Origin: Gammaproteobacteria bacterium
Lineage (GTDB): Bacteria > Pseudomonadota > Gammaproteobacteria > SZUA-229
Reading direction: 5' to 3'
Length of the DNA stretch: 64,000 nt
Assembly: GCA_036567985.1 (NCBI GenBank)
Contig: DATCTK010000012.1
Span: forward strand, 15,973 to 79,972
Below, one piece after another: positions 2,303 through 59,806 of the stretch. Under the pieces are notes generated by a model. That model did no database searches, was not told the origin of the DNA, and worked only from the letters and a program-made list of their open reading frames with translations. Positions within the stretch are counted from its first letter, which is position 1. Each line of letters opens with the position of its first letter. The position numbers and the translations under genes were made by a program.

Positions 2303-3751
2303 ATGAATAAAGAGATTTTAATCAATGTCACCCCGCAGGAAACCCGGGTGGCGATTCTGGAAAACGGCATACTGCAGGAAATGTATATTGAACGCAGTCG
2401 TAATAAAGGCCTGGTGGGTAATATTTATAAGGGCCGGGTGTGCCGGGTGTTGCCCGGCATGGAAGCGGCTTTTGTCGAAGTGGGCATGGAACGCGCCGGT
2501 TTTCTGCATGTGTCGGATATCGCGCCCTATGATGCGCTGAACAAACCGCCGATTGCCAGCCTGCTGTCCGAGGGACAGGATGTGCTGGTGCAGGTGATTA
2601 AAGACCCGATGGGCACCAAGGGTGCACGCCTGACCGCCAATATTACTATTCCATCGCGTTACCTGGTGTTTATGCCCAAGTCGGACAATGTGGGGGTGTC
2701 GGCGCGCATTGAAGACGAGGCAGAACGTGAACGCCTGCGTGATATGTTGCTGATGCACAAGGAACAGCTGGGTGATGCCGGCTATATTATTCGTACCGCA
2801 GCGGAAACTGCCACCGCGGAATCGATGGTGCAGGATGTACTGTTTCTGAATAAATTATGGCGTTCGATCAGTGAACAGGCCAGCACGCTGGAGGCGGGGA
2901 ATGTAATACATGAAGACCTGTCGTTACCGGTGCGTGTGTTACGGGATATGATTGATGATGACATTGAAAAAATTCGTGTGGACTCCCGCGAAACCTATAG
3001 CAAGATGCTGCGCTTTGCGGAAAAGCTCTCGCTGGAGGCGCGGCATAAAATCGAGCATTATCCCGGCGAGCGACCTATCTTCGATCTGTACGGCGTAGAA
3101 GATGAAATTCACCGTGCGCTGGATCGCAAAACCATACTCAAGTCCGGCGGTTACCTGATTATCGACCAGACCGAGGCGATGACCACCATCGATGTCAATA
3201 CCGGTGCATTCGTCGGCCATCGAAACCTCGAAGAAACCATTTTCAAAACCAACCTGGAAGCGGCGCAGGCGATTGCGCGTCAGCTGCGGCTGCGTAATCT
3301 CGGTGGCATTATCATTATCGATTTTATTGACATGGTGGAAGAAGATCACCGTGCCCAGGTGCTGCGTGCGCTGGAAAAAGCGCTGGAAAAAGATCATGCC
3401 CGCACCCAGGTGTGCCAGGTGTCTTCACTGGGGCTGGTGGAAATGACTCGCAAGCGCACCCGTGAAAGCCTGGAACATGTACTGTGTAAAACCTGTCCTA
3501 CCTGTGACGGTCGCGGTTATGTAAAAAGTGCAGAAACTGTCTGCTATGAAGTGTTTCGTGAAATACTGCGTGAAGCGCGTCAGTTTGATGCAAAACAGCT
3601 ACTGGTGCTGGCGGCGCAGGAAGTGATTGACCTGCTGGTGGATGAGGAATCCAACAGTCTGGCCGAGCTTGAAGATTTTATCGGTGTACCAATCAAACTG
3701 CAGGTGGAGTCTCTCTACACCCAGGAACAGTTTGATGTGGTGATTATGTAA
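2303..3751 (+). CDS. rng: Ribonuclease G
   Basis: S1 domain, IDVNTG, RLRNLGGIIIIDFIDM, CPTC; maf-rng-yhdP synteny. Confidence 0.95.
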   Translation: MNKEILINVTPQETRVAILENGILQEMYIERSRNKGLVGNIYKGRVCRVLPGMEAAFVEVGMERAGFLHVSDIAPYDALNKPPIASLLSEGQDVLVQVIKDPMGTKGARLTANITIPSRYLVFMPKSDNVGVSARIEDEAERERLRDMLLMHKEQLGDAGYIIRTAAETATAESMVQDVLFLNKLWRSISEQASTLEAGNVIHEDLSLPVRVLRDMIDDDIEKIRVDSRETYSKMLRFAEKLSLEARHKIEHYPGERPIFDLYGVEDEIHRALDRKTILKSGGYLIIDQTEAMTTIDVNTGAFVGHRNLEETIFKTNLEAAQAIARQLRLRNLGGIIIIDFIDMVEEDHRAQVLRALEKALEKDHARTQVCQVSSLGLVEMTRKRTRESLEHVLCKTCPTCDGRGYVKSAETVCYEVFREILREARQFDAKQLLVLAAQEVIDLLVDEESNSLAELEDFIGVPIKLQVESLYTQEQFDVVIM

Positions 3752-11656: not shown

Positions 11657-11739
11657 CGTAGGTTGGGGTGAGAAACGAACCCCAACATAAACCGACACCG
11701 GCTGTAGCCGTTGGGGTTCCTGCGTCACCCCAACCTACG
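11657..11739. repeat. GTAG-family REP doublet (REPIN-like)
   Basis: cgtaggttggggtgagaaacgaaccccaac (11657-11686) and inverted copy (11710-11739, reverse complement cgtaggttggggtgacgcaggaaccccaac). Confidence 0.8.
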
Positions 11740-11780: not shown

Positions 11781-12014
11781 AAAAGAAAACGCGAATGAAC
11801 GCAAATAAACGCAAATAAACCCTAAGGTTTCCATGCATGGGTTTAAAGGCGTCCATTTATTCCGCACATCCTGTGCTCCACCCTTCGGGCCGAGCATTTG
11901 CTCGCTCAAAGTGCTCCTGCACTTTAATATGATGTGCGATGGACTGCTGTATTAAAGCCTGTTCTGAAAAGCGCATGTATTCGCGTTCATTTGCGTTCAT
12001 TTGCGTTTTCTTTT
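11781..12014. repeat. Composite palindromic element: AAAAGAAAACGC-(RAATRAACGC)n arms enclosing GGA-loop hairpins
   Basis: Arms 11781-11817 and 11978-12014 are inverted; inner stem 11851-11944 carries AAAGUGC-AGGA-GCACUUU and GCACA-GGA-UGUGC on the minus strand. Confidence 0.75.
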
Positions 12015-12350: not shown

Positions 12351-12788
12351 ATGACAAGCTATCGACGCCCGGAGTCTGTGCTGGTGGTTGTGTACACTGC
12401 CGAGCAGCAATGCCTGATGCTGCAGCGCAGGCAGCCCGCAGGTTTCTGGCAGTCGGTAACTGGCGGACTGGAAGCGGATGAATCAGCCGACGCCTGTGCG
12501 CAGCGCGAACTGTTGGAAGAAACCGGTATCGATGCACAGCCGCTGAATAGTGGCATTGTGAATCATTTCGAGATACTGCCCCAGTGGCGGCACCGTTATG
12601 ATCCGCAGCACAGCACCAATACCGAATATGTATACAGTGTCTGTTTGCCTGAAAAGCTGACGCCGCGTCTGCATCCACAGGAACATGTCAGCTATGCCTG
12701 GCTGGATGCAGCGCAGGCGATTCAGCGTTGCTTTTCACACACCAATGCGGACGCCATACAACGCATTGTGTTATCAGAAAATGAATGA
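12351..12788 (+). CDS. nudB: Dihydroneopterin triphosphate diphosphatase (NUDIX)
   Basis: RPESVLVV, FWQSVTGG, RELLEETG, SHTNA; follows aspS. Confidence 0.9.
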   Translation: MTSYRRPESVLVVVYTAEQQCLMLQRRQPAGFWQSVTGGLEADESADACAQRELLEETGIDAQPLNSGIVNHFEILPQWRHRYDPQHSTNTEYVYSVCLPEKLTPRLHPQEHVSYAWLDAAQAIQRCFSHTNADAIQRIVLSENE

Positions 12789-12839: not shown

Positions 12840-13934
12840 ATGAATGCTGTTGCCATACAACCCTATGCTTTGCTCGACGATGAAGAATGCACTCAACGCA
12901 TTATTGCGGCAAAGAAAAAGCTCGGTGAGCGACTGGTGATTCTGGGGCATCACTATCAGCGTGATGAGGTGTTCGAGCATTCCGACTTTACCGGTGACTC
13001 ACTCAAACTGTCCCGTGCCGCAGCCGCCTCGAAAGCCGAGTACATTGTATTCTGCGGCGTGCATTTTATGGCAGAAGTGGCGGATATACTCTCGCGCCCG
13101 GAACAGATTTCGATTCTGCCGGATATGGCCGCGGGCTGTTCCATGGCGGATATGGCCAACCTGGCCAAGGTGGAAAAAGCCTGGCGTGAACTGTCCACGG
13201 TGCTGGATCCCGACGAGATGGTAACGCCGGTCACCTATATCAACTCCGCTGCGGATTTAAAAGCCTTCTGCGGCAGTCACGGTGGCATTGTCTGTACCTC
13301 CACCAATGCGCGTCATGTGCTGGAATGGTCATTCAAGCAGCGCGAAAAAATCCTGTTTTTCCCCGATCAGCACCTGGGGCGCAATACTGGTGCTGCAATG
13401 GGTATACCACTGGATGAAATGGTAGTGTGGGATTTTGATCAGGAGATGGGCGGACTCAGCCCCGAGCAGATTAAAAACGCCAGGATGATTTTATGGAAGG
13501 GTTTCTGTTCGGTGCATCAGATGTTCACCCCCGAGCAGATTGATAACTTCAAGCAGCAGTACCCCGAGACAAAAGTGATCTCTCACCCGGAGAGCTCCTA
13601 TGAAGTGTGTCAGAAGTCCGATTATGTTGGCTCTACGGAATATATTATTAATACCATCCGCGATGCCGAGCCCAATACCCGCTGGCTGGTGGCGACTGAG
13701 TTGAACCTGGTCAATCGCCTGAAAGAACAGTTTGCTGCTGAAGGCAAACAGGTGCACTTTATGTCACCCACGGTGTGTATGTGCTCAACCATGTTCCGCA
13801 TTGACCCGCAGCATCTGGCCTGGACGCTGGAAAACCTGGTGGAAGGCAATGTGGTGAACCAGATATCTGTGCCCGAAAACATTGCCCGTGATGCTAAACT
13901 GGCGCTGGATCGTATGCTTGAGGTGTCGCCCTAG
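12840..13934 (+). CDS. nadA: Quinolinate synthase
   Basis: ILGHHYQR, CGVHFMAE, AGCSMAD, KGFCSVH, CMCSTM. Confidence 0.95.
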   Translation: MNAVAIQPYALLDDEECTQRIIAAKKKLGERLVILGHHYQRDEVFEHSDFTGDSLKLSRAAAASKAEYIVFCGVHFMAEVADILSRPEQISILPDMAAGCSMADMANLAKVEKAWRELSTVLDPDEMVTPVTYINSAADLKAFCGSHGGIVCTSTNARHVLEWSFKQREKILFFPDQHLGRNTGAAMGIPLDEMVVWDFDQEMGGLSPEQIKNARMILWKGFCSVHQMFTPEQIDNFKQQYPETKVISHPESSYEVCQKSDYVGSTEYIINTIRDAEPNTRWLVATELNLVNRLKEQFAAEGKQVHFMSPTVCMCSTMFRIDPQHLAWTLENLVEGNVVNQISVPENIARDAKLALDRMLEVSP

Positions 13935-26731: not shown

Positions 26732-26807
26732 GGGCCGTTAGCTCAGTCGGTAGAGCAGTGGACTTTTAATCCATTGGTCGAGTGTTCGAGTCACTCACGG
26801 CCCACCA
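26732..26807 (+). tRNA. tRNA-Lys (anticodon UUU)
   Basis: 76 nt cloverleaf; anticodon arm GTGGA-CTTTTAA-TCCAT; T arm GAGTG-TTCGAGT-CACTC; encoded CCA. Confidence 0.97.
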
Positions 26808-26813
26808 TATATA

Positions 26814-26846
26814 GAAAGCCTGTCAGTTTCTGACAGGCTTTTTTTT
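26814..26846 (+). terminator. Intrinsic terminator after tRNA-Lys
   Basis: aaagcctgtcag-ttt-ctgacaggcttt stem followed by a T-run. Confidence 0.85.
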
Positions 26847-26909
26847 ATGCACAGGAGAGCGTATTTTGCGTGAGGCAGGCGACAGCCGTGAGCCGATGGT
26901 CGTTAGTCC
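26847..26909 (+). repeat. Terminator-anchored GGA-hairpin repeat, copy A (degenerate)
   Basis: atgcacaggagagcgtattttgcgtgaggcagg...ggtcgttagtcc matches the other copies. Confidence 0.7.
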
Positions 26910-26928: not shown

Positions 26929-26960
26929 CGTAGGGTGGCATCAAGCGAAGCGGATCCACC
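26929..26960 (+). repeat. GTAG-family REP singlet
   Basis: cGTAG followed by imperfect palindrome ggtggcatc-aagcgaagcg-gatccacc. Confidence 0.65.
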
Positions 26961-27003
26961 TGATACCCGTTCATTAGCGGACTCGCTTCTGTTTTATATG
27001 CAT

Positions 27004-30890: not shown

Positions 30891-31042
30891 GCCGGCACGG
30901 GTTTCGTGCCGGTATTTAAAGTTTAAATCTCGCCTTGTAGGACATCTTTCCTGAAAATAAGTGCCCTTGAGAACAGTTATGGAGTATGGCATATCGTTGT
31001 CGGCAGCAAAAAGCGCCCCTGTTCTTTTGACTCACGACAAAG

Positions 31043-31156
31043 GACTAACGACTAACGACTAACGACTAACGACCAATGACTACTGTATACCGCACATCCT
31101 GTGCATATCGCTACCGGCATCCTTGTCTCTCGCGAAATACCGCACATCCTGTGCAT
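31043..31156 (-). repeat. Terminator-anchored GGA-hairpin repeat, copy B, with (GACTAAC)4 tail
   Basis: Two ataccgcacatcctgtgcata units (31087-31107 and ending at 31157) plus heptamer array 31043-31070. Confidence 0.85.
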
Positions 31157-31189
31157 AAAAAAAGCCACCTGGGGTTCAGGTGGCTTTTT
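31157..31189 (-). terminator. Intrinsic terminator of dsrE2
   Basis: A7-gccacctg-gggtt-caggtggc-T5. Confidence 0.85.
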
Positions 31190-34538: not shown

Positions 34539-34570
34539 AAAGGCTGCGCAATTATGCGCGGCCTTTTTTT
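34539..34570 (+). terminator. Intrinsic terminator after the FadL-like gene
   Basis: aaaaggctgcgca-atta-tgcgcggccttttttt. Confidence 0.85.
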
Positions 34571-34720
34571 ATATGCTGGATGCATGGTATTTTGCGAGAG
34601 GCATGGATGTCGTTAGTCAAAAGACCAAAGACCAAAGACCAAAGACCAAAGACCAAAGATATGGGTTGAGTCTGTTTGCGTTTATTAGTGTTCATTCGCG
34701 GGCTAGCGCGTTTTCATTTG
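34571..34720 (+). repeat. Terminator-anchored GGA-hairpin repeat, copy C, with (AAAGACC)5 and a degenerate AACGC arm
   Basis: atatgctggatgcatggtattttgcgagaggcatggatgtcgttagtcaaaag closely matches copy E; heptamers 34620-34654. Confidence 0.85.
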
Positions 34721-35872: not shown

Positions 35873-35904
35873 AAAAGCCCGGCTATATGTCGGGCTTTTT
35901 TGTT
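35873..35904 (+). terminator. Intrinsic terminator
   Basis: aaaagcccggc-tatat-gtcgggcttttttgtt. Confidence 0.85.
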
Positions 35905-35981
35905 ATGCACAGGACGTGCGGTATTCCGCGAGAGGCAGGGAAGCAGTCGTTGGTCGTTAGTCGAGCGTCATTCGTCAAAAG
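35905..35981 (+). repeat. Terminator-anchored GGA-hairpin repeat, copy D
   Basis: atgcacaggacgtgcggtattccgcgagaggcagggaagcagtcgttggtcgttagtcg. Confidence 0.85.
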
Positions 35982-53706: not shown

Positions 53707-53810
53707 AAAAAGAAAACGCAAATGAACGCGAATTAACGCAAATAGACGCGATAGAAAGCCTTATCCAGGTCCGTATTGGCGTTAATTCGCGTTGTTCGCG
53801 TTTTCTTTTC
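53707..53810. repeat. AAAAGAAAACGC-(RAATRAACGC)n palindromic element
   Basis: 53707-53750 is an imperfect inversion of 53774-53809; same arms as 11781-12014. Confidence 0.75.
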
Positions 53811-53813
53811 AGC

Positions 53814-53940
53814 TTTTGACTAACGACATCTGACCCAGGACTAACGACTGATTACCTGCCTCTCACGAAATACCGTACATCCTGTACATCTTTGCTCCCG
53901 GCATCCCTGCCTCCCGCAAAATACCATGCATCCAGCATAT
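53814..53940 (-). repeat. Terminator-anchored GGA-hairpin repeat, copy E
   Basis: Minus strand: AUGC-UGGAU-GCAU, GGCA-GGGA-UGCC, GUACA-GGA-UGUAC, then gtcgttagtc tails. Confidence 0.85.
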
Positions 53941-53970
53941 AAAAAAAGCCACGCTCTAAGAGCGTGGCTT
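53941..53970 (-). terminator. Intrinsic terminator of phoX
   Basis: aagccacgctct-ta-agagcgtggctt stem with a T7 run on the minus strand. Confidence 0.85.
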
Positions 53971-57170: not shown

Positions 57171-57287
57171 AAAAGAAAACGCACTAAAGTGCTGGAGCAC
57201 AGGAGTGCGGAATAAATAAACGCAATTAGAATCATATGCAGCTTTGTGTGTATTCGCGGTTTTCGTGTTGTTGCCGTTTACCTTTTG
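57171..57287 (+). repeat. Composite repeat with AAAAGAAAACGC arm and overlapping GGA hairpins
   Basis: gtgc-tgga-gcac / gcac-agga-gtgc then ggaataaat; matches the reverse complement of 11855-11880. Confidence 0.7.
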
Positions 57288-59426: not shown

Positions 59427-59467
59427 AGACTCCGCTCGGGGCGTTTACATATTTACAGGGTCATTTT

Positions 59468-59735
59468 TAGGGTGCCTCTGAACAATGCTGATATGTCTCT
59501 GCGAGACCTGAAGCGTGCAGCTACAAGGCGTGCTTCGCAGTGAATGGCCCGGTCCTTTACAAGAAGCACAACACGGTAGATGTGCGCTTCAGGACTCGCC
59601 CTTCGGGGCTTGCAGGTGTGCCCGCACTCTGTGTTAGCGTTTTTCACCAGGCTTCAGCATGCTTTCAAAACGCTGCCTTGATTGCGAACACACCTGTAAG
59701 CCAGAGATATGTCATCATTGTTCAGAGGTACCCTA
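59468..59735. mobile_element. 268-bp non-autonomous MITE-like element
   Basis: 34-bp imperfect terminal inverted repeats (59468-59501 / 59702-59735), TA at both ends, two long internal hairpins, no transposase. Confidence 0.75.
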
Positions 59736-59806
59736 TAACCATTATAGACGATGATTTGTAATATGCAGGGTGCCTGGCCCTGAACGGGTGAGGTGTCTGT
59801 CAGTGG

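What the first reader, a model, noticed from the sequence alone, without database searches (positions are those of the whole stretch)
53814..53940. Dispersed repeat family built from GGA-loop hairpins resembling CsrA/RsmA sites
Seen: seven related intergenic elements (11851-11944 minus, 26847-26909, 31043-31156 minus, 34571-34620, 35905-35981, 53814-53940 minus, 57189-57213) carry short hairpins whose stems differ while the loop keeps GGA: GCACA-GGA-UGUGC, GUACA-GGA-UGUAC, AUGC-UGGAU-GCAU, GGCA-GGGA-UGCC, GCAC-AGGAC-GUGC, GUGC-UGGA-GCAC, AAAGUGC-AGGA-GCACUUU. Each element has 1-5 GGA motifs, and the GGA strand always matches an upstream transcript (57189 lies between convergent genes, so it is less informative). 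Established: CsrA/RsmA binds looped GGA (consensus close to RUACARGGAUGU) and is titrated by multi-GGA sRNAs (CsrB, RsmY/Z). Inference: this could be a distributed Csr/Rsm sponge produced by 3' read-through of many operons, or a mobile repeat that spreads CsrA sites. About one copy per 10 kb here would imply many genome-wide.
Basis: partly seen in the sequence, partly recalled or inferred. Interest (0 to 1): 0.85.

Follow-up and report, generated by a model that had tools for sequence, protein, structure and literature searches.

The report
CsrA-type hairpin repeats behind terminators
Short tandem runs of a 50-base repeat lie directly after the transcription stop signals of many genes in an uncultured sulfur-oxidising bacterium. 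Each unit folds into two small hairpins whose tips look like docking sites for the global RNA-binding regulator CsrA. The repeat is real, structured and uncatalogued, but whether it actually captures CsrA is untested.

Summary
The repeat is real. Its conserved core occurs 6 times in the window against 0.12 expected by chance.

Five of the seven listed elements (26847, 31043, 34571, 35905, 53814) belong to one family, here called A. Each has 1-2 head-to-tail units of about 50 nt here, and up to 7 in relatives.

Each unit folds into three helices supported by covariation. Both hairpin tips show GGA in 116-118 of 118 distinct units. Hairpin 1 reads CAGGA(U/A/C)G, the repeat motif of CsrB.

About 70 of 75 arrays (64 by script) begin at the first base after a hairpin plus T-run terminator, on the sense strand of the upstream gene. 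About half are followed by GTCNTTN heptamers.

Arrays hold the same loci in genomes only 80-90% identical, while unit number varies.

Elements 11851 and 57189 belong to a second 70-nt family (B) that shares one hairpin.

No Rfam family, plasmid or viral contig matches. A bona fide TwoAYGGAY element in the same lineage served as a positive control.

Best reading (0.4): a modular DNA repeat whose units act as two-site CsrA clamps on terminator read-through RNA. The main rival (0.3) is a selfish element that targets terminators.

Not tested: CsrA binding, presence of csrA, and the strand that is transcribed.

The parts
53941..53970 (-). The array starts at the next base.
53890..53940 (-). Family A unit 1. 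Hairpin 1 is AUGC-UGGAU-GCAU. P2 is UUGC/GCAA. P3 is GGCA-GGGA-UGCC.
   Evidence: 67.7 bits, E 2.7e-19; fold
53850..53889 (-). Family A unit 2. Hairpin 1 is GUAC-AGGAU-GUAC. The unit is truncated in hairpin 2 by the heptamer array.
   Evidence: 44.8 bits
53813..53849 (-). Degenerate GTCNTTN heptamer run ending in GTCAAAAG.
   Evidence: (D1)
31157..31186 (-). Intrinsic terminator of dsrE2.
31106..31156 (-). Family A full unit. Hairpin 1 is GCAC-AGGAU-GUGC. P2 is UCGC/GCGA. Hairpin 2 is ACA-AGGA-UGCC.
   Evidence: 74 bits, E 2.6e-21
31082..31105 (-). Truncated second unit: hairpin 1 plus GGUAU only.
31024..31081 (-). (AGTCGTT)n heptamer array, about 8 copies, ending in GTCAAAAG.
   Evidence: period 7, 7.7 copies
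34540..34570 (+). Intrinsic terminator of the 468-aa FadL/Toluene_X-like gene.
34571..34621 (+). Family A single unit. Hairpin 1 is AUGC-UGGAU-GCAU. Hairpin 2 is GGCA-UGGA-UGUC.
   Evidence: 59.3 bits
34609..34659 (+). GTCGTTAGTCAAAAG followed by (AAAGACC) x 5.7.
35875..35901 (+). Intrinsic terminator of the 308-aa gene. The T-run reads TTTTTTGTT.
35905..35944 (+). Family A unit. Hairpin 1 is GCAC-AGGAC-GUGC. The unit is truncated in hairpin 2.
   Evidence: 51.2 bits
35945..35981 (+). Heptamer run ending in GTCAAAAG.
26816..26846 (+). Intrinsic terminator of tRNA-Lys (gene at 26732-26807).
26847..26897 (+). Degenerate family A unit; the stem of hairpin 1 is broken. The orthologous site in relatives carries an intact unit.
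   Evidence: 29.5 bits
26999..27029 (-). soxA terminator followed only by ATGCA. The ortholog in MAG JBFFND01 (locus L069) carries 2 units plus heptamers here, so an array was probably lost.
11851..11944 (-). Family B unit, a different repeat. It contains AAAGUGC-AGGA-GCACUUU, GAGC-GAAU-GCUC, GCAC-AGGAU-GUGC and GGAAUAAAU, and is nested in decamer arrays.
57171..57235 (+). Internally deleted family B unit: GUGC-UGGA-GCAC then AGGA-GUGC-GGAAUAAAU.

Best explanation
Family A is a lineage-specific, modular interspersed repeat. It occupies the first nucleotides after intrinsic terminators, on the sense strand of the terminated gene.

SHOWN. The unit is a module of about 50 nt made of a short hairpin (P1) and a longer interrupted hairpin (P2, a GNGA/GGUA internal loop, then P3). 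Both tips present GGA. The fold is selected on the GGA strand. Arrays persist at the same loci across genomes 80-90% identical, while unit number changes.

INFERRED. As DNA, the arrays grow and shrink by tandem duplication and gene conversion. They are seeded at 'hairpin + TT|AT' junctions. The end of each unit (P2/P3 hairpin plus RTT, then ATG) resembles such a junction, which would explain both the head-to-tail arrays and the zero spacing to terminators.

As RNA, the arrays exist only in transcripts that read through the terminator. There, each unit offers two canonical CsrA/RsmA sites 24-27 nt apart and would clamp one CsrA dimer. Many arrays follow genes that are usually highly expressed (tRNA-Lys, cspA, glnA, ferredoxin, dsrE2). 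Even a few per cent read-through would then yield a dispersed pool of CsrA-binding RNA that tracks bulk transcription. This is the logic proposed for the E. coli rrn read-through sRNAs RrA/B/F.
For: FAMILY AND ANATOMY. Core enrichment is 6 against 0.12. A covariance model finds 200 units in 669 kb of window plus related contigs.

STRUCTURE. 97.5% of cells are paired, 7 pairs show double changes, and 0 of 500 shuffles reach the observed values. P2 was not part of the search model, yet it is 95.6% paired, with classes CCGC/GCGG (34), UCGC/GCGA (27) and UUGC/GCAA (24). P1 has at least 9 distinct fully complementary stems.

STRAND. G.U cells number 46 against 15 A.C, and the U2.G18 pair is invariant. 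At P1 position 4-16 there are 14 U.G cells and at most 3 unpaired.

LOOPS. GGA is kept in 116-118 of 118 distinct units at both tips, while the neighbouring loop bases vary (U 70, A 26, C 22, G 0). The CAGGA(U/A/C)G and A-NGGA-U forms match the CsrB repeat and the SELEX consensus (PMC7652899).

POSITION. A script finds 64 of 75 non-redundant arrays starting 0 nt after a hairpin plus T4-8; manual inspection raises this to about 70. The upstream ORF is co-oriented in 65 of 71. In the window, 5 of 6 strong intergenic terminators carry an array.

PERSISTENCE. The same loci are occupied in contigs 80-98% identical, with different unit numbers and compensated stem changes, such as AUGC/GCAU, GUGC/GCGC and GUAC/GUAC at the FadL locus.

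RNA. Contigs from at least three metatranscriptomes (X26, X44, X45) contain units and terminator-to-unit junctions.

PRECEDENT. Terminator read-through sRNAs that bind CsrA are described in PMC8144298.
Against: The terminators are strong (8-12 bp GC-rich stems, T6-8), so read-through should be rare. A site just after the release point is also what a 'safe haven' for selfish DNA looks like.

The single-stranded linker GGUAUU and the internal loop are as invariant as GGA. CsrA binding does not explain that.

The covarying positions lie 12-26 nt apart. Part of the covariation could therefore be linkage between unit variants spread by gene conversion.

The RNA evidence is unstranded, low-depth Logan contigs and may include DNA carry-over.

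csrA was not found in the 669 kb held, and the genome could not be searched.

No insertion mechanism was demonstrated.
Confidence: 0.4

Rival explanations
1. Family A is a selfish or neutral DNA repeat that targets terminators, in the manner of REP/BIME, BOX or IS200/IS605-derived elements. A single-strand-specific enzyme recognises 'hairpin + T-run' as its target. It also recognises the unit's own GGA-tipped hairpins as its ends. The resemblance to CsrA sites is then incidental or merely tolerated, and the arrays lie after terminators precisely because they are not transcribed there.
For: Spacing to the T-run is zero in about 93% of arrays, and internal unit junctions (hairpin-RTT|ATG) resemble the terminator junction. 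Unit number varies between strains 92-98% identical. The architecture is modular, with a UU/AA-type unit enriched near the distal end, a truncated last unit and a heptamer tail ending in GTCAAAAG. Linker bases not needed for CsrA are invariant. The lineage is crowded with other repeats, including REPIN-like elements, decamer arrays and MITEs (earlier notes). One RAYT-like Y1 transposase gene exists in a related contig.
Against: No cognate transposase lies beside or between units; the RAYT-like ORF in L130 is flanked by its own duplicated 3' end, not by units. No clean empty site or target duplication was seen. Arrays lie on both strands within 30 kb (3 on +, 2 on -), so there is no strict bias towards one replication strand. 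All units in an array point the same way, unlike REPINs. No copies occur on plasmids or viral contigs. Arrays persist at the same loci across 80-90% identity. The loop positions that vary are those that CsrA tolerates.
Confidence: 0.3
2. The array is a cis-acting 3' module rather than a trans sponge. On read-through RNA, its hairpins, with CsrA or another protein, decide the fate of that transcript. They could block 3' exonucleases, trigger decay or Rho-dependent termination, or insulate the downstream gene. The effect would be local to each operon.
For: The position relative to the upstream gene is fixed, while the orientation of the downstream gene is free: 44 co-directional and 26 convergent. 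Some arrays are followed by inverted heptamer arms plus a T-run that could act as a second terminator, for example in L121, L130 and L159. REP/BIME elements are known to act this way in E. coli (own knowledge).
Against: The terminator hairpin already protects the 3' end of the main transcript. Unit number varies freely at a locus (1 to 4) with no obvious compensation. No expression data are available.
Confidence: 0.12
3. The array acts at the DNA level, like BIME-2 arrays. Tandem palindromes placed just downstream of highly expressed genes would bind gyrase, IHF or another nucleoid protein, relieving supercoiling or marking domain borders.
For: Arrays are extragenic, lie at the 3' ends of genes that are usually highly expressed, and have a regular 50-bp period. 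This parallels E. coli BIMEs (own knowledge).
Against: Compensatory stem changes, the tolerance of G.U over A.C, and loop-specific conservation all point to a single-stranded fold on one strand, not a duplex binding site.
Confidence: 0.06

Closest known systems
TwoAYGGAY RNA motif (Rfam RF01731, clan CL00106; Weinberg 2010, PMC2864571; Gardner & Eldai 2015, PMC4333381; Minerva preprint 10.64898/2026.09.22.753630)
   Same: Both have two adjacent hairpins with GGA-containing terminal loops, and one stem containing G-A juxtapositions. Both are multi-copy in Pseudomonadota, with very variable copy number. Both are flanked by short degenerate tandem repeats and REP arrays. TwoAYGGAY has been proposed, but not shown, to bind Csr/Rsm proteins and to expand like a mobile element.
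   Different: Family A has no basal stem enclosing the two hairpins. Its hairpins are much shorter. Its units are head-to-tail and abut terminators. The RF01731 model gives no hit even at E<=10 on 201 nt, yet it detects a genuine TwoAYGGAY element 300 nt from a family A array in the same lineage (L116:12259-12383, 45.2 bits).
CsrB/CsrC/RsmX/RsmY/RsmZ CsrA-sequestering sRNAs
   Same: Both carry repeated C-AGGA(U/A/C)-G hairpin loops, with short stems of 4-5 bp and many sites per RNA (2 per unit, up to about 14 per array).
   Different: Family A has no promoter of its own. The array begins at the last T of another gene's terminator instead of ending in its own. It is dispersed over many loci rather than 1-3 genes. 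There is no Rfam match.
RrA/RrB/RrF of E. coli (PMC8144298)
   Same: CsrA-binding RNA lies directly behind a strong terminator and is made only by read-through of that terminator, so its level would follow the activity of the upstream gene.
   Different: The E. coli RNAs are single-copy sequences between two defined terminators (T1 and T2) of rRNA operons. They are not repeats and show no sequence similarity. Their binding was shown experimentally; here nothing has been.
REP/BIME arrays and pneumococcal BOX elements (own knowledge)
   Same: These are extragenic, lie 3' of genes, form hairpins, are modular with a variable number of internal units, and are hypervariable between strains.
   Different: REPs have a 5' GTAG head and occur as inverted pairs. 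BOX elements have no fixed relation to terminators. Neither shows a conserved GGA loop.

Membership tests
CsrB/Rsm-type sponge sRNA (Rfam clan CL00106) | Multiple GGA motifs presented in hairpin loops (CAGGAWG or ANGGAN) | tested here: met
   GGA is present in 116-118 of 118 distinct units at both tips. CAGGAUG, CAGGAAG or CAGGACG occurs in 106 of 118 hairpin 1 loops.
CsrB/Rsm-type sponge sRNA (Rfam clan CL00106) | Stand-alone gene with its own promoter and a 3' terminator | tested here: not met
   Arrays start 0 nt after the upstream gene's T-run in 64-70 of 75 cases, which leaves no room for a promoter.
CsrB/Rsm-type sponge sRNA (Rfam clan CL00106) | Match to a CsrB, CsrC, RsmX, RsmY or RsmZ covariance model | tested here: not met
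   No hit at gathering score or at E<=10. The only CsrC hit (10 bits) covers the terminator.
CsrB/Rsm-type sponge sRNA (Rfam clan CL00106) | Binds and titrates CsrA, with csrA present in the genome | not testable with these tools
tblastn found no CsrA in the 669 kb held, which is too small a sample to conclude anything.
TwoAYGGAY (RF01731) | Two sequential hairpins with AYGGAY-type loops | tested here: inconclusive
   Two GGA-tipped hairpins are present. However, a strict AYGGAY loop occurs only in 31 of 118 hairpin 2 loops (AUGGAY 29, ACGGAU 2). Hairpin 1 is mostly ACAGGAW.
TwoAYGGAY (RF01731) | Common basal stem, and a score at or above the gathering threshold | tested here: not met
   No enclosing stem is predicted. 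There is no RF01731 hit on the arrays. The positive control L116:12259-12383 scores 45.2 against a threshold of 43.
REP/BIME (RAYT-mobilised) | Palindrome headed by GTAG, occurring as inverted pairs (REPIN) | tested here: not met
   GTAG is conserved (GGUAGC, 117 of 118) but lies inside the internal loop and 3' strand of P2, not at a hairpin foot. All units in an array share one orientation.
REP/BIME (RAYT-mobilised) | Cognate RAYT gene flanked by the repeats | tested here: inconclusive
The whole genome could not be searched.
BOX-type modular repeat | Distinct end modules with a variable number of internal units | tested here: met
   Arrays hold 1-7 units. Inner units are mostly CC/GG or UC/GA in P2. 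The UU/AA type is enriched at the last or penultimate position. The last unit is truncated and a heptamer tail ends in GTCAAAAG. This is a tendency, not a strict rule.
IS200/IS605-derived miniature element | Strand-specific insertion 3' of a short target, with subterminal hairpins, and a Y1 transposase in the genome | tested here: inconclusive
   The left boundary always follows TT, usually T6-8 after a hairpin. No empty site, excision junction or linked transposase was found.

The most novel reading that the evidence does not exclude
In this lineage, and perhaps in other Gammaproteobacteria where sequence-unrelated GGA-hairpin arrays also sit behind terminators (according to earlier, unchecked notes of this scan), CsrA would be titrated by a genome-wide distributed sponge rather than only by a few dedicated sRNA genes. 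Nearly every strong terminator is followed by 2-14 CsrA sites. Free CsrA would then be set by the summed read-through of the most active genes. That would couple the state of transcription termination, and bulk expression, directly to post-transcriptional control.
Probability: 0.15. Interest if true: 0.85.

Novelty: new variant of a known kind. Interest (0 to 1): 0.6.

Why it matters
Csr/Rsm regulation is thought to be tuned by one to a few dedicated sponge RNAs. Here canonical two-site CsrA modules are built into a repeat that holds the position just behind terminators at many loci, including cspA, glnA, dsrE2 and a tRNA.

If the arrays are transcribed and bound, this would be a new input to the Csr system: terminator read-through, summed over the genome. 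It would also give a function to the wider, unexplained class of multi-copy GGA-hairpin elements such as TwoAYGGAY.

If they are not, the family is still a clear case of a repeat with single-nucleotide specificity for intrinsic terminators. It is also a warning for annotation: public gene calls place spurious 86-aa ORFs across these arrays.

Tried and rejected
I therefore have no genome-wide copy number, no csrA/uvrY/CsrB check and no replication-strand analysis.
- Genome-contig scan. Only two MAGs (JBFFND01 and JAPHRB01) were true carriers.
- Rfam. No family matches the units at gathering score or at E<=10 on 5 kb, 201 nt and 501 nt pieces.
- Vehicles. There are no copies on viral contigs or plasmids.
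- csrA and hfq. tblastn found neither in the 669 kb held.
- Transposases.
- Empty site. At the soxA terminator the intergenic region is rearranged between genomes, so no clean boundary can be read.
- Terminator saturation outside the window. The count was unusable because of false positives inside ORFs and opposite-strand readings of bidirectional terminators. The tool's own terminator scan sat at chance level and missed several true sites.
- Strand of transcription. All RNA runs are unstranded Logan contigs. The 549-nt, 448x contig in X26 could not be placed on any held locus.
- Own promoter for the large arrays. All arrays of 4 or more units follow protein-gene terminators.
- Mini-ORF reading (AUG to UAG within a unit). 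Rejected, because the variable loop length breaks the frame and there is no SD spacing.
- Opposite-strand (UCC-loop) function. Disfavoured by the excess of G.U over A.C and by T-runs that are long only on the GGA strand.

Full report
ORGANISM AND TOOLS

The window (GC 51%) encodes aspS, nadA, soxA, dsrE2, bepA, ilvI and valS. Exact copies of its DsrE2 protein and near-identical DNA occur only in sediment, soil and salt-lake metagenomes and in MAG GCA_041563375.1, labelled 'Gammaproteobacteria bacterium'.

Yes. The conserved core GGTATTYYGYGNGAGRCA occurs six times (up to 2 mismatches allowed) against 0.12 expected.

The seven elements fall into two families.

Family A comprises the elements at 26847, 31043, 34571, 35905 and 53814. 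A covariance model built from related copies finds seven units there (E 2.6e-21 to 0.007). It gives 11845-11878 only 12 bits and finds nothing at 57189.

Family B comprises the elements at 11851 and 57189. Its unit is about 70 nt: ACU-AAAGUGC-AGGA-GCACUUU...GAGC-GAAU-GCUC...GCAC-AGGAU-GUGC-GGAAUAAAU. I found it 16 times in related contigs, once as a 3-unit tandem. It is always nested in 10-nt (AACGCRAATR) arrays and not at terminators. The two families share one hairpin module.

ANATOMY OF FAMILY A

A scan of species-representative genomes was swamped by chance hits but showed many copies in MAG JBFFND01 and one other MAG. A stricter pattern that left both hairpins free returned 61 metagenome loci, most from three samples and on contigs of up to 338 kb. 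The model finds 200 units in the 669 kb held.

The layout, read on the GGA strand, is:
- a terminator hairpin plus T6-8;
- then, with no spacer, 1-7 head-to-tail units of 50-51 nt;
- usually a truncated last unit;
- in 40 of 75 arrays, 2-15 phased GTCNTTN heptamers, 17 of them ending in GTCAAA(A)G;
- sometimes (AAAGACC)n, inverted heptamer arms, decamer arrays or REPs.

The consensus unit is AUGYAC-AGGAW-GURC GGUAUU YYGC GNGA GGC-A(K)GGAY-GCC GGUA GCRR UU.

STRUCTURE

RNAalifold predicted hairpin 1 (P1) and hairpin 2 (P3). It also predicted an unexpected helix, P2 (YYGC/GCRR), that encloses P3 across a 4x4 internal loop (GNGA/GGUA).

On 118 distinct units, 97.5% of cells pair. Seven of 12 pairs show changes on both sides. 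No shuffle reaches the observed values, and slid controls collapse to 18-59% paired.

P2 was not part of the search model, so it is an independent test. It is 95.6% paired, in three main complementary classes: CCGC/GCGG (34), UCGC/GCGA (27) and UUGC/GCAA (24). P1 shows at least nine different fully complementary stems: GCAC/GUGC, GUAC/GUAC, ACAC/GUGU, AUGC/GCAU, GUGC/GCAC, GCCC/GGGC, GUUC/GAAC, AUAC/GUAU and GCAU/AUGC.

Wobble pairs (46 G.U, plus an invariant U.G at the base of P1) outnumber A.C (15). At the main polymorphic P1 pair there are 14 U.G cells and at most 3 unpaired ones. The fold is therefore selected on the GGA strand.

One caveat applies. The covarying columns are only 12-26 nt apart, and units spread by duplication and conversion. 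Part of the signal may therefore be linkage rather than independent compensation.

LOOPS

GGA is present in 117, 118 and 118 of 118 units at the three positions of hairpin 1, and in 117, 116 and 118 of 118 at hairpin 2. The next base varies freely: U 70, A 26, C 22 and G 0 in hairpin 1.

Hairpin 1 reads CAGGAUG, CAGGAAG or CAGGACG in 106 of 118 units. This is the CAGGA(U/A/C)G repeat of CsrB. Hairpin 2 is either a C-AGGAC-G pentaloop or an A-NGGA-U form like the SELEX consensus RUACARGGAUGU (PMC7652899). The stems are 4-5 bp, as in SELEX ligands. Successive GGA motifs lie 24-27 nt apart, within the 10-63 nt that one CsrA dimer can bridge (PMC7652899).

By sequence and structure, then, each unit is a textbook two-site CsrA/RsmA ligand. 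Equally invariant, and not explained by CsrA, are the linker GGUAUU and the internal loop.

POSITION

Of 75 non-redundant arrays, a script finds 64 starting at the first base after a hairpin plus T4-8 (mostly T6-7). Inspection of the rest raises this to about 70. Six of the script's misses had a divergent first unit and one a short T-run. That leaves about four true exceptions, at least two of which (L061, L119) still follow TT.

The terminator stems are unrelated in sequence, so they belong to the host genes. The upstream ORF ends a median of 71 nt before the array and is co-oriented in 65 of 71 cases. The downstream gene is co-directional in 44 cases and convergent in 26.

In the window, five of six strong intergenic terminators carry an array. 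The sixth, after soxA, is followed by ATGCA only, while its ortholog in JBFFND01 has two units plus heptamers.

Arrays with the most units follow genes that are typically highly expressed, including glnA, a ferredoxin and an FBPase-like gene (identified from their C-terminal sequences). The cspA terminator in L139 is also followed by an array.

EVOLUTION

The window's five loci are also occupied in contigs 92-98% identical (Ga0209692), 85-90% identical (JBFFND01; four of the five loci recovered) and 80-90% identical (L111, L135).

Unit number differs between them. At dsrE2 it is 1.5, 2.5 and 3.5. At the DUF302-like locus it is 1 against 3. At one locus the stem of hairpin 1 changes in a compensated way: AUGC/GCAU, GUGC/GCGC, GUAC/GUAC.

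The arrays are thus old residents with fast internal turnover. No copy was found on viral contigs or plasmids.

TRANSCRIPTION

Only Logan contigs of metatranscriptomes were available. Units, heptamers and contigs joining a terminator to the first unit occur in a salt-lake run (X26), a sediment run (X44, oligo-dT) and a further salt-lake run (X45). They also occur in X53, a run of unknown type. In the two marine-sediment runs (X25, X30), only heptamer contigs were laid.

Depths are low, strands are unknown and DNA carry-over cannot be excluded. The data are compatible with read-through but do not show it.

WHAT IT IS NOT

No Rfam model matches (CsrB, CsrC, RsmX/Y/Z, TwoAYGGAY), even at E<=10 on short pieces. 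A genuine TwoAYGGAY element was found 300 nt from an array in L116 (45.2 bits). The lineage therefore carries that family as well, and the negative result is meaningful.

There is no room for a promoter, so this is not a CsrB-type gene. Units are never inverted, and the conserved GTAG is not at a hairpin foot, so it is not a classical REP/REPIN. The one RAYT-like gene seen is not associated with units.

INTERPRETATION

Shown:
- a structured module selected on one strand;
- two CsrA-consensus tips per module;
- single-base specificity for terminators;
- modular, hypervariable arrays;
- long residence at loci.

Inferred: spread as DNA by duplication and conversion, seeded at 'hairpin-TT|AT' junctions that each unit end resembles; and, as RNA, binding of one CsrA dimer per unit on read-through transcripts. 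This is the logic reported for the E. coli rrn read-through sRNAs RrA/B/F (PMC8144298).

I put 0.4 on this combined reading. I put 0.3 on a purely selfish, terminator-targeting element whose hairpins serve its own mobilisation. Smaller weights go to a cis-acting 3' module and to a BIME-like DNA role.

The strength of the terminators is the main argument against an efficient sponge. The loop pattern, the strand-specific fold and the persistence at loci are the main arguments against mere junk.

CONTEXT

A September 2026 preprint (10.64898/2026.09.22.753630) describes TwoAYGGAY elements as multi-copy, flanked by short tandem repeats and REP arrays, possibly Csr/Rsm sponges, and mobile-like, with no resolution. 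Gardner & Eldai (PMC4333381) first matched them to the CsrA motif.

Earlier notes of this scan, which are unchecked, report other GGA-hairpin repeats in this genome. They also report sequence-unrelated GGA arrays behind terminators in other Gammaproteobacteria. My sequence look-ups found family A only in this genome.

Family A is therefore best filed as a new, terminator-abutting, tandem variant of this poorly understood class.

Noticed in passing
window 11851-11944 (-), 57171-57235 (+); L149:10544-10760: Family B is a second GGA-hairpin repeat of about 70 nt. It has four small hairpins, two tipped with AGGA or AGGAU. It is always inserted in decamer arrays between ...AACGCACT and AAAT(A/G)AACGC. 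Sixteen copies occur in related contigs, once as a 3-unit tandem. The GAGC/GCUC stem covaries with GUGC/GCAC.
   Followed up: partly
window 11781-11817 / 11978-12014; 53707-53750 / 53770-53810: Arrays of period 10 nt (AACGCRAATR) form long inverted arms, typically starting with GAAAAGAAAACGCG. They often follow family A arrays or enclose family B units.
   Followed up: no
window 31024-31081, 34620-34659, 35945-35981, 53813-53849: Heptamer arrays (AGTCGTT)n and (AAAGACC)n follow the GGA units, always on the same strand, and commonly end in GTCAAAAG. In relatives they also occur as inverted arms followed by a T-run, which could form a long hairpin or a second terminator (L121, L130, L159). Their function is unknown.
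   Followed up: partly
window 11657-11739; about 26930-26965: Classical REP-like elements are present. One is a REPIN-type inverted pair, CGTAGGTTGGGGTGAG.../...CACCCCAACCTACG. The other is a GTAG-headed palindrome, GTAGGGTGGCATCAAGCGAAGCGGATCCACC. Both recur in many related contigs next to family A arrays.
   Followed up: no
L116:12259-12383 (-): A genuine TwoAYGGAY (RF01731) element scores 45.2 bits about 300 nt downstream of a 4-unit family A array. The lineage therefore carries at least three kinds of GGA-hairpin element.
   Followed up: partly
L139:2925-3247 then 3250-3299: The cspA gene, which matches Rfam's cspA thermoregulator model, is followed directly by a family A unit. An unchecked note of this scan reports a GGA array behind cspA in an unrelated genome.
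   Followed up: no
L130:12882-13571: A 229-aa RAYT/IS200-like Y1 transposase ORF has its last 90 nt or so duplicated upstream (12680-12771 against 13480-13571). It is not flanked by family A or family B units.
   Followed up: partly
L109:3580-3840, L112:617-877, L113, L114: Public gene calls place an 86-aa ORF on the opposite strand across the dsrE2 array. This is almost certainly an artefact of the repeat.
   Followed up: no
window 59465-59501 / 59702-59738: A 37-nt inverted repeat, 86% complementary, has arms 200 nt apart in the intergenic region upstream of the 678-aa gene. It could be a MITE or a regulatory structure.
   Followed up: no
L145 (+), after the terminator AACCCGGTCACTGTCTCAGTGACCGGGTTTTTTT: This is a 'zero-unit' array. 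The T-run is followed by ATGCACA and then directly by heptamers, so units can be lost while both ends of the element remain.
   Followed up: no
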